Shown here: positions 1,060 through 64,000 of the stretch, piece by piece
How the letters are laid out: each line of letters opens with the position of its first letter
Numbering within the stretch: position 1 is the first letter of the stretch
Notes under the pieces: generated by a model
What the model saw: only the letters and a program-made list of their open reading frames with translations
Told to the model about the DNA's origin: nothing
The model's database searches: none
Position numbers and translations under genes: made by a program
NCBI RefSeq assembly: GCF_013167455.1
Contig: NZ_CP038328.1
Strand: one strand, 5' to 3'
Length of the DNA stretch: 64,000 nucleotides
Source of the DNA: Escherichia coli O157:H7
GTDB taxonomy: Bacteria; Pseudomonadota; Gammaproteobacteria; Enterobacterales; Enterobacteriaceae

Positions 1060-2469
1060 ATGTCCGCTGAACACGTACTGACGATGCTGAACGAGCACGA
1101 AGTGAAGTTTGTTGATTTGCGCTTCACCGATACCAAAGGTAAAGAACAGCACGTCACTATCCCTGCTCATCAGGTGAATGCTGAATTCTTCGAAGAAGGC
1201 AAAATGTTTGACGGCTCCTCGATTGGCGGCTGGAAAGGCATTAACGAATCCGACATGGTGCTGATGCCAGACGCATCCACCGCAGTGATTGACCCGTTCT
1301 TCGCCGACTCCACCCTGATTATCCGTTGCGACATCCTTGAACCTGGCACCCTGCAAGGCTATGACCGTGACCCGCGCTCTATTGCGAAGCGCGCCGAAGA
1401 TTACCTGCGTTCCACTGGCATTGCCGACACCGTACTGTTCGGGCCAGAACCTGAATTCTTCCTGTTCGATGACATCCGTTTCGGATCATCTATCTCCGGT
1501 TCCCACGTTGCTATCGACGATATCGAAGGCGCATGGAACTCCTCCACCCAATACGAAGGTGGTAACAAAGGTCACCGTCCGGCAGTGAAAGGCGGTTACT
1601 TCCCGGTTCCGCCGGTAGACTCTGCTCAGGATATTCGTTCTGAAATGTGTCTGGTGATGGAACAGATGGGTCTGGTGGTTGAAGCCCATCACCACGAAGT
1701 AGCGACTGCTGGTCAGAACGAAGTGGCTACCCGCTTCAATACCATGACCAAAAAAGCTGACGAAATTCAGATCTACAAATATGTTGTGCACAACGTAGCG
1801 CACCGCTTCGGTAAAACCGCGACCTTTATGCCAAAACCGATGTTCGGTGATAACGGCTCCGGTATGCACTGCCACATGTCGCTGTCTAAAAACGGCGTTA
1901 ACCTGTTCGCAGGCGACAAATACGCAGGTCTGTCTGAGCAGGCGCTGTACTACATTGGCGGCGTAATCAAACACGCTAAAGCGATTAACGCCCTGGCAAA
2001 CCCGACCACCAACTCTTATAAGCGTCTGGTCCCGGGCTACGAAGCTCCGGTAATGCTGGCTTACTCTGCACGCAACCGTTCTGCGTCTATCCGTATTCCG
2101 GTGGTTTCTTCTCCGAAAGCACGTCGTATCGAAGTACGTTTCCCGGATCCGGCGGCTAACCCGTACCTGTGCTTTGCTGCCCTGCTGATGGCCGGTCTTG
2201 ATGGCATCAAGAACAAGATCCATCCGGGCGAAGCCATGGACAAAAACCTGTATGACCTGCCGCCGGAAGAAGCGAAAGAGATCCCACAGGTTGCAGGCTC
2301 TCTGGAAGAAGCACTGAACGAGCTGGATCTGGACCGCGAGTTCCTGAAAGCCGGTGGCGTGTTCACGGATGAAGCGATCGATGCGTACATCGCTCTGCGT
2401 CGCGAAGAAGATGACCGCGTGCGTATGACTCCGCATCCGGTAGAGTTTGAGCTGTACTACAGCGTCTAA
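1060..2469 (+). CDS. glnA: Glutamine synthetase
   Basis: 469-aa [35 protein letters not shown]... recognised as GlnA. Confidence 0.97.
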
Positions 2470-41251: not shown

Positions 41252-41353
41252 AACGCCTCCTGACGCAACAACTTACCCGCACAAAATAGAATTGTGCTGT
41301 ACAAACGTCCAGTTGGAAAGGCATTTCCTGCGAGGCGCTACGCAAAAATACAA

Positions 41354-45705: not shown

Positions 45706-45766
45706 AATTGGCGGTTACTGTATATTCCTCAAGCGCAAATTATTCATGCCGAAGTGAAGGACTTTC

Positions 45767-60142: not shown

Positions 60143-61045
60143 ATGAAAAAAACGCTCGCAACGTTATTTTTATTAACGTGTCTGGGATCATCATCCGCTT
60201 ATGCGGATAACGCTTTGATTTTACAAACTGATTTTAGCCTGAAAGATGGTGCCGTCTCGGCGATGAAAGGGGTCGCATTCGGTGTTGACCATAATCTTAA
60301 AATATTTGATTTAACACACGAAATTCCACCGTATAACATCTGGGAAGGCGCTTACCGCCTGTATCAGACCGCCAGTTACTGGCCGCAAGGTTCGGTATTT
60401 GTCAGTGTGGTCGATCCGGGCGTAGGCACTGACCGTAAATCGATAGTGCTGAAAACCAAAAACGGTCAATACTTCGTTTCACCGGATAACGGTACGCTCA
60501 CTTTGGTGGCGGAATCGCTGGGTATTGAGAGCGTCCGGGAAATCGACGAAAAAGCTAACCGCCTGAAAGGTTCTGAAAAGTCATATACCTTCCACGGTCG
60601 TGACGTGTATGCCTACACCGGTGCACGTCTGGCTTCCGGGGCGATCACGTTCGAGCAGGTGGGGCCTGAGCTTCCTGCAAAGGTTGTCGAACTTTCTTAT
60701 CAGAAAGCAAAAGCAACAAAAGGTGAAGTGAAGGGCAATATCCCGATTCTCGATATTCAGTACGGCAACGTCTGGAGCAATATCAGCGACGAGTTGCTGA
60801 ATCAGGCGGGGATCAAACTCAACGACACGTTGTGTGTGACCATTTCCGAAGGTTCCCGGCAAAAATACGCAGGGAAAATGCCGTATGTCGCAAGCTTCGG
60901 CGATGTGCCGGAAGGACAGCCGATGGTGTATCTGAACAGCTTATTGAATGTTTCCGTGGCGCTGAATATGGATAATTTCGCGCAGAAACATCAGGTTGCG
61001 TCTGGTGCTGACTGGAATATTGATGTGAAGAAATGTGATAAGTAA
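60143..61045 (+). CDS. SAM hydroxide adenosyltransferase-like (DUF62 / chlorinase-fluorinase fold) protein with N-terminal signal peptide
   Basis: 300 aa; signal peptide MKKTLATLFLLTCLGSSSAYA then family motifs QTDFSLKDGAVSAMKGV, VVDPGVGTDRKS, FVSPDNGTLTLV, YGNVWSNISDELLNQAGI (recalled from fluorinase/SalL-type enzymes). Confidence 0.75.
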   Translation: MKKTLATLFLLTCLGSSSAYADNALILQTDFSLKDGAVSAMKGVAFGVDHNLKIFDLTHEIPPYNIWEGAYRLYQTASYWPQGSVFVSVVDPGVGTDRKSIVLKTKNGQYFVSPDNGTLTLVAESLGIESVREIDEKANRLKGSEKSYTFHGRDVYAYTGARLASGAITFEQVGPELPAKVVELSYQKAKATKGEVKGNIPILDIQYGNVWSNISDELLNQAGIKLNDTLCVTISEGSRQKYAGKMPYVASFGDVPEGQPMVYLNSLLNVSVALNMDNFAQKHQVASGADWNIDVKKCDK

Positions 61046-61089: not shown

Positions 61090-63252
61090 TTATACCGTCT
61101 CCAGCCGGGCGTATGCCGCCACCAGCCATTTAATACCCTGGCCCTGGAATGCCACCTGCAAACGGCTATGCTCGCCGCTGCCTTCCATATTGACGATAGT
61201 GCCTTCACCAAACTTAGCGTGGCGTACACGCTGGCCGAGCTTGTAGCCGCTGTCGTTCTCGACCATCGGCGTACCCATACGCTGATGGCTGACCGGGCGG
61301 CTTACCGTGGCGCGCAGGCGCACCTCTTCCACACACTCTTCCGGCAACTCACCGATAAAGCGCGACGGGCGATGGTAAACCTCTTTGCCATACAGACGGC
61401 GAGTTTCCGCGTAGGTCAGCGTCAGTTTCTGCATCGCGCGGGTTACACCAACGTAGGCCAGACGGCGTTCTTCTTCCAGACGTCCGCCTTCATCCAGCGA
61501 CATCTGGCTTGGGAACATGCCCTCTTCCATACCGACGATAAACACCTGCGGGAACTCCAGGCCTTTCGCCGAGTGCAGCGTCATCAACTGCACTGCATCC
61601 TGCCAGGTATCCGCCTGCCCCTCGCCCGCTTCCAGCGCCGCATGGGAGAGGAACGCCTGCAGCGGCATTAAATCTTCGTCTTCTTCGTTGTAGCTGAATT
61701 GGCGCGTTGCCGTCACTAGTTCCTCTAAGTTTTCGATACGCGTCTGACCTTTTTCGCCCTTCTCCTGCTCGTACATGGTACGCAGGCCGGAGTCTTTAAT
61801 TACCCGGTCAGTCTGTACATGCAGCGGCATATCGGCAGTTTCCTGCGCTAAGGCGTCGATCAGTTCCATAAACCGCTGTAAGGCGCTGGCAGCACGTCCG
61901 GCGAGGGCTTTTTCCTGCAACAGTTCACGACATGCCTGCCAGAGTGTTAACTGGCGATCGCGCGATGTCTGACGTACCACGTCCAGCGTCCGGTCACCAA
62001 TACCCCGCGTTGGCGTATTCACCACACGCTCAAAGGCCGCGTCGTCGTTGCGGTTGGCAATCAGGCGCAGATACGAGAGCGCATCTTTGATTTCCTGGCG
62101 TTCGAAGAAGCGCATCCCGCCGTAAATACGGTACGGCATACTGGCCTGCAATAACGCCTCTTCGAGCACCCGCGACTGGGCGTTGCTGCGGTAGAGAATG
62201 GCGCACTCGGCGAGCGCCCCACCGTTGTCCTGCCAGGTTTTGATGCGGTTAACGACAAAACGCGCTTCATCGAGTTCGTTAAAAGCGCAATAGAGGGAAA
62301 TAGGCTCACCGTCCGCGCCATCGGTCCACAGTTTTTTACCCAGACGCCCGTTGTTGTTTTCAATCAGGGCGTTCGCGGCGCTCAGAATGTTACTGGTAGA
62401 ACGATAGTTCTGCTCCAGACGGATAGTTTCGGCACCGGGGAAATCATTGAGGAAACGCTGAATATTCTCCACCTGCGCCCCGCGCCAGCCGTAGATTGAC
62501 TGGTCGTCATCACCGACGATCATCACTTTGCCGGTGTCGCCCGCCAGCAGGCGGATCCACGCGTACTGAATGTTGTTGGTATCCTGGAATTCGTCCACCA
62601 GGATGTTGGTAAAACGTTCGCGGTAGTGTTGCAGGATATGCGGCTTGTTAAGCCACAACTCGTGAGCGCGCAGCAGCAGCTCGGCGAAGTCCACCAGGCC
62701 TGCACGATCGCACGCTTCCTGATACGCCTGATACACCTTCTGCCAGGTCTGCTCCACCGGATTACCGTAGCTTTGAATATGATGCGGACGCAGGCCTTCA
62801 TCTTTCTGGCTGTTGATGTACCACATTGCCTGGCGCGGCGGCCACTGCTTCTCGTCGAGGTTCATGGCTTTGATCAGACGCTTAAGCAGGCGTAGCTGGT
62901 CTTCGCTATCGAGGATCTGGAAATCCTGCGGCAGATTGGCGTCCATATGGTGCGCACGCAGCAAACGGTGCGCCAGCCCGTGGAAGGTGCCGACCCACAT
63001 GCCGCCCTGGCTGGTGCCCATCAGTTGCCCGATACGATGACGCATCTCCGCCGCCGCTTTGTTGGTAAACGTCACAGCCATAATCGAGTATGGCGAGCAG
63101 TTTTCCACGCTCATCAGCCAGGCGATACGATGCACCAGTACGCGCGTCTTACCACTGCCCGCGCCCGCCAGCACCAGAAGGTTGCTGCGCGGCGCGGCCA
63201 CCGCTTCGCGCTGTTTGTCATTAAGGCTGTCGAGCAGGTAAGAAACGTCCAT
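61090..63252 (-). CDS. uvrD: DNA helicase II
   Basis: MDVSYLLDSLNDKQREAVAAPRSNLLVLAGAGSGKTRVLVHRIAWL..., 720 aa from internal ATG. Confidence 0.97.
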   Translation of the reverse strand: MDVSYLLDSLNDKQREAVAAPRSNLLVLAGAGSGKTRVLVHRIAWLMSVENCSPYSIMAVTFTNKAAAEMRHRIGQLMGTSQGGMWVGTFHGLAHRLLRAHHMDANLPQDFQILDSEDQLRLLKRLIKAMNLDEKQWPPRQAMWYINSQKDEGLRPHHIQSYGNPVEQTWQKVYQAYQEACDRAGLVDFAELLLRAHELWLNKPHILQHYRERFTNILVDEFQDTNNIQYAWIRLLAGDTGKVMIVGDDDQSIYGWRGAQVENIQRFLNDFPGAETIRLEQNYRSTSNILSAANALIENNNGRLGKKLWTDGADGEPISLYCAFNELDEARFVVNRIKTWQDNGGALAECAILYRSNAQSRVLEEALLQASMPYRIYGGMRFFERQEIKDALSYLRLIANRNDDAAFERVVNTPTRGIGDRTLDVVRQTSRDRQLTLWQACRELLQEKALAGRAASALQRFMELIDALAQETADMPLHVQTDRVIKDSGLRTMYEQEKGEKGQTRIENLEELVTATRQFSYNEEDEDLMPLQAFLSHAALEAGEGQADTWQDAVQLMTLHSAKGLEFPQVFIVGMEEGMFPSQMSLDEGGRLEEERRLAYVGVTRAMQKLTLTYAETRRLYGKEVYHRPSRFIGELPEECVEEVRLRATVSRPVSHQRMGTPMVENDSGYKLGQRVRHAKFGEGTIVNMEGSGEHSRLQVAFQGQGIKWLVAAYARLETV

Positions 63253-63308
63253 TGGCACCGCCGCGTAAAAATAGGTTGGGCGGAGAAGCGCAACGCCCTC
63301 CGCCAAAA

Positions 63309-63328
63309 AGCTGGGTATATATACAGAT
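63309..63328 (-). promoter_or_regulatory. LexA (SOS) box of uvrD
   Basis: Minus strand ATCTGTATATATACCCAGCT, CTG-N10-CAG, 57 bp upstream of uvrD start. Confidence 0.85.
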
Positions 63329-63335
63329 TTGCTGA

Positions 63336-64000
63336 TTATATCAGCGAGGTCAGAGATGCCAACCGGGAAATTTCCAGATGCGGGAGTAAACGGCTATCCC
63401 AGGTTTGCATCAGATCGCCATTTTCCGGTCTGATCCAACAGGCCTGCATTCCGCTGCGAATTGCCCCACCCACGTCAGTGGTGAGATCGTCACCTACATG
63501 TAAGATCTCGCCGATCGGCACGTTGAGTTTTTCCGCCGCCAGGAAGTACATATCGCTGAACGGTTTCGAGCGCCCGTGCGGGCCAGCGCGCAGCACAAAC
63601 TCAAAATAATCCCCCAAACCAAACAGTTCCGGCTGAGCGTTACCGTTGGTGATCGCCACCAGCGGCCATTTCTTCGCCAGCTGTTTTAAGGTGTCGTGGG
63701 TTTGCTGCGGGACGTCGATCCTGCTGCGCCATTTAGCAAAGTTGATCATTGCCGCGTGTGCGCCTGCACTGGCTTCTTCCGCGCTCAATCCGGCGTCAAG
63801 CATCGCTTGTTCTATTGAGCGAAAACGCCAGCGCGTCACGTCGTGATAAATCTCGGGTTCCGCTTCCCGTACCGCCTGGCGCAGGCGTTGCAGATCTTCA
63901 TTCTGGAAGCTGCGCAGCGCCGGATGGTAATTTTGCACAAAGGTAAGCGCCTCCTGCTCGGTGCGCAAAATCACCGGACGGTTATCGTAAAGGGTATCAT
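63336..64000 (-). CDS. yigB: HAD-family phosphatase YigB (C-terminal part; start lies beyond window end)
   Basis: In-frame translation ...[34 protein letters not shown]...; open to the window edge. Confidence 0.85.

What the first reader, a model, noticed from the sequence alone, without database searches (positions are those of the whole stretch)
63309..63328. Canonical LexA box upstream of uvrD
Minus strand ATCTGTATATATACCCAGCT (CTG-N10-CAG) lies in the yigB-uvrD spacer, consistent with SOS regulation of uvrD. A GC-rich hairpin between the yigB stop and the box (about 63265-63300) may attenuate read-through from yigB.
Basis: established knowledge. Interest (0 to 1): 0.2.

Follow-up and report, generated by a model that had tools for sequence, protein, structure and literature searches.

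The report
Known LexA operator of E. coli uvrD
This is the long-known binding site for the DNA-damage repressor LexA at the start of the E. coli uvrD helicase transcript, followed (not preceded) by a GC-rich leader hairpin; it is real, well conserved and ordinary.

Summary
The 20-mer ATCTGTATATATACCCAGCT is on the minus strand at 63328..63309, in the 83-nt yigB-uvrD spacer, 56 nt before the uvrD ATG. The regulatory region (63250..63365) is base-for-base identical to E. coli K-12 MG1655.

A LexA matrix built from 16 other verified E. coli boxes ranks this site first among all window positions (16.5 bits; about 0.07 such hits expected per 64 kb). Its heterology index falls in the weaker half of real sites, so "canonical" overstates it.

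A near-consensus promoter (TTGGCA-16-TGnTATAAT) lies inside the end of yigB. It puts the box at about +1 to +20, where it would block initiation.

A LexA-like box precedes uvrD in 75 of 80 gammaproteobacterial species sampled.

It spans 63304..63279, between the box and the uvrD ATG, in the uvrD leader. It folds stably (-17 kcal/mol), is single-copy, and is identical in about 99% of E. coli genomes. It is a poor intrinsic terminator, because the U-run starts 8 nt after the stem. Hairpin-plus-T-tract leaders recur in relatives, which fits the 1983 report of LexA control plus attenuation.

Verdict: already known, low interest.

The parts
63336..64000 (-). 3' part of yigB (HAD phosphatase), the last gene of the dapF-yigA-xerC-yigB cluster. 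Stop codon TAA is at 63338..63336. The gene runs off the window end.
   Evidence: ORF list; RefSeq annotation of identical sequence.
63357..63362 (-). Predicted -35 hexamer TTGGCA of the uvrD promoter, inside the yigB coding sequence.
   Evidence: Promoter scan: 11/12 match with a 16-nt spacer. Conserved in Enterobacterales.
63335..63343 (-). Predicted extended -10, TGaTATAAT. The hexamer at 63340..63335 contains the yigB stop codon.
   Evidence: Promoter scan with TG motif. A promoter of at least 9/12 lies just before the box in 39 of 44 Enterobacterales loci that have a box.
63327..63330 (-). Inferred transcription start, 5-8 nt after the -10. Not mapped here.
   Evidence: Inference from the -10 position. 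No TSS table could be read.
63309..63328 (-). LexA operator (SOS box) ATCTGTATATATACCCAGCT, at about +1..+20 of the uvrD transcript.
   Evidence: Sequence. Best PWM hit in the window at 16.5 bits, HI 7.15. Chance expectation 0.07 per window. Equals MG1655 3997907..3997926. Orthologous boxes in 75/80 species.
63279..63304 (-). Leader hairpin GGCGGAGGGCG-UUG-CGCUUCUCCGCC: 11 pairs, one bulge, -17.1 kcal/mol. Preceded by T5 (63309..63305).
   Evidence: Folding. Single copy per genome and identical in 5375/5425 E. coli genomes. Homologous hairpin in 6 further genomes from 5 other species plus the E. coli representative, with 87.8% of cells paired and 3 pairs changed on both sides.
63266..63278 (-). 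Tail CAACCTATTTTTA. The U5 run starts 8 nt after the stem. A weak or atypical terminator tail.
   Evidence: 2 U in the first 8 nt. Not called by the terminator scan.
63256..63262 (-). Shine-Dalgarno-like GGCGGTG, 3 nt before the ATG.
   Evidence: Sequence. ggcggtgcc(a/t)ATG is conserved across Enterobacterales leaders. Its role as an RBS is inferred.
61090..63252 (-). uvrD (DNA helicase II) coding sequence, ATG at 63252..63250.
   Evidence: ORF; annotation.

Best explanation
This is the LexA operator of the E. coli uvrD promoter.

How it works: a strong sigma-70 promoter (TTGGCA, 16 nt, TGaTATAAT) is embedded in the last codons of yigB. It starts transcription at about 63329-63327. The 20-bp LexA site begins at or within one or two bases of that start. 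A LexA dimer bound there sterically hinders RNA polymerase binding or escape (inferred from position). After DNA damage, RecA-stimulated LexA self-cleavage frees the promoter and uvrD rises modestly.

The box is a mid-to-weak-affinity site next to a near-consensus promoter. uvrD therefore keeps substantial basal expression and has a small induction ratio.

Downstream, the 76-nt leader carries a stable GC-rich hairpin followed at a distance by a U-run. The most likely role of this element is a leaky terminator/attenuator. It would damp both read-through from the dapF-yigB operon and transcripts from the uvrD promoter itself.

Shown here: sequence, score, promoter match, hairpin stability, conservation. 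Inferred, or taken from the literature: LexA binding, the TSS, termination.
For: Box sequence and position:
- Sequence and coordinates confirmed.
- All 16 training boxes were verified as exact 20-mers in MG1655 promoter regions.
- The uvrD box is the top-scoring position in the window (16.5 bits). Its HI of 7.15 lies inside the leave-one-out range of 0.68-12.77 for real sites.
- The second-best hit (16.2 bits) is the known rmuC box, then there is a 4-bit gap. This serves as an internal positive control.
- Expected hits at 16.5 bits or more: 0.07 per window.

Promoter:
- 11/12 match with an extended -10, ending 6 nt before the box.
- The same -35/-10/box arrangement occurs in 39/44 Enterobacterales loci.

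Conservation:
- A LexA-like box of at least 10 bits lies upstream of uvrD in 75/80 species of Enterobacterales, Vibrionales and Alteromonadales.
- The regulatory region is identical to MG1655 and to 5359/5425 E. coli genomes over 91 nt.

Literature on this sequence:
- uvrD is listed as a classical SOS gene with HI 8.5, 2.1-fold AZT induction and 1.7-fold lexA dependence (PMC11228462).
- UV-inducible promoter reporter (PMC5999292).
- Salmonella uvrD is induced 13.9-fold and has a box (PMC8072944).
- V. cholerae uvrD is induced 9.1-fold (PMC5963079).

Hairpin:
- -17.1 kcal/mol, with pairing probability about 0.97-0.99.
- Hairpin plus T-tract occurs in 11/50 orthologous leaders under strict criteria, against 1.8 +/- 1.3 in shuffles. 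Under relaxed criteria it is 16/50 against 3.1 +/- 1.6.
Against: - No LexA binding or TSS data could be read directly. The primary 1983 paper is not held, so only its title is cited.
- One single-cell study saw no detectable uvrD induction at sub-inhibitory ciprofloxacin.
- For the attenuator part: the terminator scan does not call this hairpin, and only 2 of the first 8 nt after the stem are U.
- The whole-leader MFE is no better than shuffles, z = -0.11.
- The Term-seq supplements that are held list no uvrD 3' end.
- Several close relatives have leaders too short for any hairpin.
- Covariation support rests on only 7 sequences.
Confidence: 0.92

Rival explanations
1. The hairpin is chiefly the terminator of the upstream dapF-yigA-xerC-yigB operon, which is the first reader's idea with the geometry corrected. 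The uvrD promoter sits inside yigB, so the operon's terminator can only lie after that promoter. Any effect on uvrD transcripts would then be a by-product, not a regulatory device.
For: - The hairpin starts 32 nt after the yigB stop, and the four upstream genes overlap or abut as one unit.
- Hairpin plus T-tract recurs at this position with unrelated sequences in other species. That is what a generic terminator would show.
- No alternative antiterminator structure was evident.
Against: - The tail is weak for a terminator.
- Many relatives have no hairpin at all, so termination of the operon is not obligatory.
- The published title ascribes attenuation to uvrD transcription.
- The two roles are not mutually exclusive.
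Confidence: 0.3
2. The hairpin does not terminate transcription at all. It is an mRNA stability or translation element, for example by keeping the anti-SD-like CUCCGCC arm away from the GGCGGUG ribosome-binding region. Or it has no function.
For: - The U-run is displaced 8 nt from the stem.
- The held Term-seq supplements list no uvrD 3' end.
- Leader MFE is no better than shuffles.
- The 5' arm GGCGGAG nearly duplicates the SD-region GGCGGUG. Without the 5' arm, the 3' arm pairs toward that region.
Against: - The 1983 title reports attenuation.
- T-rich tails after leader hairpins are enriched in orthologous leaders.
- The hairpin is invariant in about 99% of E. coli genomes, which argues against no function. 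Clonal relatedness weakens that argument.
Confidence: 0.2
3. The CTG-N10-CAG palindrome is a chance AT-rich palindrome with no LexA role.
For: The bare CTG-N10-CAG motif is common in the window: 25 hits, and even more than the shuffle expectation.
Against: - Top PWM score in the window, with 0.07 expected.
- Its position is exactly at the predicted promoter start.
- The box is conserved across 75/80 species while the surrounding leader turns over.
- Published lexA-dependent induction.
Confidence: 0.02

Closest known systems
E. coli K-12 uvrD SOS box / uvrD promoter (Easton & Kushner 1983; listed in the SOS-box compilations that PMC11228462 cites)
   Same: Identical sequence. Window 63250..63365 equals MG1655 3997870..3997985, and the box equals 3997907..3997926. 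Same flanking genes.
   Different: Nothing in the regulatory region. The window comes from an O157:H7-like strain. It differs from K-12 only at four coding positions within the 301 nt compared.
Other gammaproteobacterial LexA operators (recA, lexA, sulA, umuDC, uvrA, uvrB, rmuC ...), consensus TACTG(TA)5CAGTA
   Same: CTG-N10-CAG with a (TA)n core, a 20-bp imperfect palindrome, and a promoter-proximal position.
   Different: - It is weaker than most: 6 mismatches to the consensus. The outer positions read AT..CT instead of TA..TA, and the right arm reads ACCCAG instead of ATACAG.
- It lies downstream of the -10 at about +1..+20. The recA box, by contrast, lies between -35 and -10 (recA position from PMC5999292).
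Intrinsic (Rho-independent) terminators / leader attenuators such as pyrBI and pyrE
   Same: A GC-rich stem-loop in a 5' leader, between the promoter and the start codon, with a U-run downstream.
   Different: - The U-run is separated from the stem by 7 non-U-rich nucleotides.
- No leader peptide and no alternative antiterminator was found.
- No Rfam family matches.
- Efficiency and any regulation are unknown.

Membership tests
LexA operator (SOS box), Gammaproteobacteria type | Invariant CTG and CAG triplets exactly 10 bp apart | tested here: met
   CTGTATATATACCCAG at 63326..63311.
LexA operator (SOS box), Gammaproteobacteria type | Overall match to the 20-bp consensus within the range of proven sites (PWM / heterology index) | tested here: met
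   16.5 bits. HI 7.15 (9.44 with the symmetrised matrix), against a leave-one-out range of 0.68-12.77 for 16 verified boxes. Best hit in the window. Literature HI 8.5.
LexA operator (SOS box), Gammaproteobacteria type | Overlaps or abuts the promoter or transcription start of the regulated gene | tested here: inconclusive
   The predicted promoter ends 6 nt before the box, and the arrangement is conserved. No mapped TSS could be read.
LexA operator (SOS box), Gammaproteobacteria type | Bound by LexA protein (footprint, EMSA, ChIP) | not testable with these tools
   Only indirect support: the title of Easton & Kushner 1983. PMC5999292 measured LexA binding to 28 native operators, but its table is not held.
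LexA operator (SOS box), Gammaproteobacteria type | Downstream gene is DNA-damage inducible in a lexA-dependent way | not testable with these tools
   Literature on the identical sequence: 2.1-fold AZT induction and 1.7-fold lexA3 dependence; UV-induced reporter. No induction at mild ciprofloxacin.
LexA operator (SOS box), Gammaproteobacteria type | Site conserved upstream of orthologous genes | tested here: met
   A box of at least 10 bits within 500 nt upstream of uvrD in 75/80 species. 40 of 44 such boxes in Enterobacterales have strict CTG-N10-CAG.
Intrinsic terminator / transcription attenuator | Stable GC-rich stem-loop in the nascent RNA | tested here: met
   11 pairs, -17.1 kcal/mol, arms paired with probability 0.97-0.99.
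Intrinsic terminator / transcription attenuator | U-rich tract immediately (0-2 nt) after the stem | tested here: not met
   The tail is CAACCUAUUUUUA, with 2 U in the first 8 nt. The terminator scan did not report it.
Intrinsic terminator / transcription attenuator | Transcripts actually end there | not testable with these tools
   The 1983 title claims attenuation. The held Term-seq supplements of PMC7815308 contain no uvrD entry.
Intrinsic terminator / transcription attenuator | Structure conserved or recurring in orthologous leaders | tested here: inconclusive
   A homologous hairpin occurs in only 7 sequences: 87.8% of cells paired, 3 pairs changed on both sides, and 18/500 shuffles reach the covariation score. 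Non-homologous hairpin plus T-tract is enriched, 11/50 against 1.8 expected. Many leaders lack any hairpin.
REP/BIME dispersed palindromic repeats | Many copies per genome | tested here: not met
   A sensitive blastn of the 40-nt hairpin segment finds a median of 1 place per genome, at most 2.
Any curated RNA family (Rfam 15) | Covariance-model match | tested here: not met
   No match up to E = 10 in 63000..63600.

The most novel reading that the evidence does not exclude
The uvrD promoter is locked inside the end of yigB, so the upstream operon's terminator has to sit in the uvrD leader. The hairpin plus T-tract that recurs there with unrelated sequences across Enterobacterales may be a selectively maintained 'shared terminator-attenuator'. 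It would set the low basal level and small SOS induction ratio of uvrD, and it would be replaced repeatedly by sequence turnover (including REP insertion in some lineages). I did not find this comparative pattern described in the papers I could read.
Probability: 0.3. Interest if true: 0.25.

Novelty: already known. Interest (0 to 1): 0.08.

Why it matters
It matters little beyond correct annotation. The site links uvrD (nucleotide-excision and mismatch repair helicase, RecA-filament remover) to the SOS response, which has been textbook knowledge since 1983.

The useful outcomes here are four:
- A corrected map: promoter inside yigB, box at +1..+20, hairpin in the leader.
- The box is a mid-to-weak operator, which fits the roughly 2-fold induction reported.
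- The same window holds a second genuine SOS box, upstream of rmuC.
- The leader hairpin is a doubtful terminator by sequence. Its reported attenuator role would merit re-examination with modern 3'-end mapping.

Tried and rejected
Papers and supplements that could not be read:
- Primary and compilation papers are not held: Easton & Kushner 1983, Courcelle 2001, Wade 2005, Thomason 2015, Turnbough 2019.
- Supplements of PMC5999292 and PMC4161252 are not held.
- The held supplements of the Term-seq paper PMC7815308 have no uvrD entry.

Consequently no mapped TSS, no measured LexA off-rate and no mapped leader 3' end could be cited.

Computations that led nowhere, or ideas that were rejected:
- Rfam search of the region found nothing.
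- Whole-leader folding against shuffles was uninformative, z = -0.11.
- The bare CTG-N10-CAG count is not discriminating: 25 observed against 13.8 expected.
- The REP/dispersed-repeat idea for the hairpin was rejected, because the hairpin is single-copy.
- A broadly conserved hairpin sequence was rejected. Leaders vary from 6 to 127 nt, and only 7 sequences share the E. coli-type hairpin.

Full report
**What is at the coordinates.** All genes in this corner of the window run on the minus strand. Read 5'->3' on that strand, the sequence is:

...cggTTGGCAtctctgacctcgcTGaTATAATcagcaa ATCTGTATATATACCCAGCT ttttGGCGGAGGGCGttgCGCtTCTCCGCCcaacctatttttacgcGGCGGTGccaATG.

- The yigB stop codon (TAA) is at 63338..63336.
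- The quoted 20-mer occupies 63328..63309.
- The uvrD ATG is at 63252..63250.
- Gene identities come from RefSeq annotation of identical sequence in E. coli O157:H7 and K-12.
- The stretch 63250..63365 is identical to MG1655 3997870..3997985, and the box corresponds to MG1655 3997907..3997926. Everything published for K-12 uvrD regulation therefore applies to this sequence.

**Is it more than chance?**
- The bare CTG-N10-CAG motif is not informative. The window has 25 matches, against 13.8 +/- 3.2 in shuffles.
- The 16-bp consensus core CTGTATATATATACAG with up to 3 mismatches matches only here, with 0.09 expected.
- For a proper score I recalled 16 classical E. coli LexA boxes: recA, lexA x2, uvrA/ssb, uvrB, sulA, umuDC, recN x3, ruvAB, dinB, dinD, dinI, polB and yebG. 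I then verified each as an exact 20-mer in the expected MG1655 promoter region.
- With a matrix from these sites (uvrD excluded), the uvrD box is the best of all 63,981 positions on both strands, at 16.5 bits.
- Its heterology index is 7.15 with the oriented matrix and 9.44 with the symmetrised matrix. The leave-one-out range for the training sites is 0.68-12.77.
- About 0.07 hits of this strength are expected per 64 kb, and 7e-5 within the 83-nt spacer. Seven of 100 Markov simulations gave any hit of 16 bits or more.
- The second-best hit (16.2 bits, 41295..41314) lies 42 nt upstream of rmuC. rmuC is a listed SOS gene. The third hit is 4 bits lower. The matrix therefore recovers exactly the two known SOS operators in this window.

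The site is genuine, but "canonical" is generous. It has six mismatches to TACTGTATATATATACAGTA and falls in the weaker half of real boxes. The published HI is 8.5.

**Promoter context.**
- The promoter scan finds a single site in 62900..64000. It is on the minus strand: TTGGCA (63362..63357), a 16-nt spacer, then TATAAT (63340..63335) preceded by TG. That is 11 of 12 consensus positions plus an extended -10.
- Both hexamers lie inside the end of yigB, and the -10 contains the yigB stop codon.
- Transcription should therefore start around 63330-63327. This places the LexA site at about +1..+20, not upstream of the promoter. That is an inference, because I could not obtain a mapped start site.

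**Conservation.**
- A scan of species-representative genomes with the UvrD N-terminus returned 80 loci from Enterobacterales, Vibrionales and Alteromonadales.
- In 75 of them the best LexA-matrix hit within 500 nt upstream of uvrD scores at least 10 bits. It lies 6-127 nt from the start codon.
- The exceptions are three Shewanella, one Xenorhabdus and one MAG.
- In Enterobacterales, 44 of 46 loci have a box, and 40 of these have strict CTG-N10-CAG. In 39 a promoter of at least 9/12 ends just before the box.
- Within E. coli, the 91 nt from the -10 to the ATG are identical in 5359 of 5425 complete genomes. Over 301 nt that include coding flanks, 2928 genomes fall below 99% identity. This is consistent with constraint on the regulatory region. 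The genomes are not independent samples, so the argument is only rough.

**Published behaviour.**
- uvrD is listed among the classical SOS genes, with 2.1-fold induction by AZT and 1.7-fold dependence on LexA cleavage (PMC11228462).
- A uvrD promoter reporter peaks 35-38 min after UV regardless of dose (PMC5999292).
- No induction was detectable at sub-inhibitory ciprofloxacin (bioRxiv 2024.11.28.625836).
- Salmonella uvrD has a box 105 bp from the ATG (HI 11.48) and is induced 13.9-fold by nalidixic acid (PMC8072944).
- V. cholerae uvrD is induced 9.1-fold by mitomycin C (PMC5963079).
- The primary paper is not held. [quoted passage not shown]
- A weak-to-middling operator next to a near-consensus promoter explains high basal expression with a small induction ratio. 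That link is my inference.

**The hairpin.**
The hairpin (63304..63279) lies after the box in the direction of transcription, inside the uvrD leader. It is not between the yigB stop and the box.
- It is stable: 11 pairs, one bulge, -17.1 kcal/mol, pairing probability about 0.97-0.99.
- It is single-copy, so it is not a REP element, and it is identical in 5375/5425 genomes.
- It matches no Rfam family.
- As an intrinsic terminator it is atypical. The tail is CAACCUAUUUUUA, with only 2 U in the first 8 nt, and the terminator scan does not report it.
- The whole leader folds no better than shuffles.
- The held Term-seq supplements contain no uvrD entry.

**The hairpin in relatives.**
- A homologous hairpin occurs in only six further genomes: the E. 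coli species representative (with a stem-breaking G>A), E. albertii, E. cloacae, and three Enterobacter/Pluralibacter-like genomes. On these seven sequences, 87.8% of cells are paired and 3 pairs changed on both sides. 18/500 shuffles reach the covariation score, and the slid controls are clearly lower.
- Elsewhere the leader sequence is replaced, and its length varies from 6 to 127 nt.
- Even so, hairpins followed by T-rich tracts recur with unrelated sequences. Some are textbook terminators, for example L021, L052, L033 and L082. The count is 11 of 50 leaders of at least 25 nt under strict criteria, against 1.8 +/- 1.3 in dinucleotide shuffles (maximum 6). Under relaxed criteria it is 16 against 3.1 +/- 1.6.
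- Several close relatives have no room for any hairpin.

My reading of the hairpin follows from the layout. The promoter sits inside yigB, so any terminator of the dapF-yigA-xerC-yigB unit must lie in the uvrD leader, where it necessarily also attenuates uvrD transcripts. In E. coli the element is probably leaky. This part is inference, at roughly 50% confidence. The rivals are a pure operon terminator, a stability or translation element, or no function.

**Verdict.** The hairpin exists but was placed on the wrong side of the box, and its terminator character is weak by sequence. Nothing here departs from established knowledge. Interest is low.

Noticed in passing
window 41295..41314: Second strong LexA-matrix hit (16.2 bits): TGCTGTACAAACGTCCAGTT, reverse complement AACTGGACGTTTGTACAGCA. 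It lies in the udp-rmuC spacer, 42 nt before the rmuC ATG. It corresponds to the known rmuC/yigN SOS box (HI 8.8, 4.5-fold AZT induction in PMC11228462).
   Followed up: partly
window 45716..45735: TACTGTATATTCCTCAAGCG has a perfect left LexA half-site but no CAG in the right arm (12 bits). By coordinate transfer it lies about 180 nt upstream of metE. Probably chance.
   Followed up: no
window 60143..61045 (+): A 300-aa gene annotated as a SAM hydrolase/SAM-dependent halogenase family protein sits between uvrD and yigE in the O157 record. Its distribution among E. coli strains was not checked.
   Followed up: no
L016, L027, L031, about 1090..1200 (uvrD leaders): These 107-108-nt leaders keep the E. 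coli-type first hairpin. They then carry a REP-like palindrome (...ctacg..agcgtaggcccggtaagcgaagcgcca.cgggc...). This matches the 105-bp box-to-ATG distance reported for Salmonella.
   Followed up: partly
L058-L091 (Vibrionales, Photobacterium), about 1170..1195: The uvrD boxes there have ATG or TTG instead of CTG in the left arm (e.g. CATTGTATAAATAACCAGTA) and lie only 7-20 nt from the ATG. The TGTATAAAT inside the box looks like an extended -10, so operator and -10 may coincide.
   Followed up: no
window 63298..63304 and 63256..63262 (-): The hairpin's 5' arm GGCGGAG nearly repeats the Shine-Dalgarno-region GGCGGTG. When the 5' arm is removed in silico, the 3' arm CUCCGCC pairs toward that region. 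This hints at a possible translation-related role for the hairpin.
   Followed up: partly
L014 about 1165 (E. coli species representative): A G>A change in the 3' arm of the hairpin (CTCCACC instead of CTCCGCC) breaks one stem pair, taking the fold from -17.9 to -12.5 kcal/mol. Only about 1% of complete E. coli genomes differ from the window in this segment.
   Followed up: partly
window 63335..63362 (-): The uvrD promoter hexamers are encoded within the last codons of yigB (TTG GCA = Leu-Ala), and the -10 contains the Ile codon and the stop. The C-terminus of YigB and the uvrD promoter therefore constrain each other.
   Followed up: no
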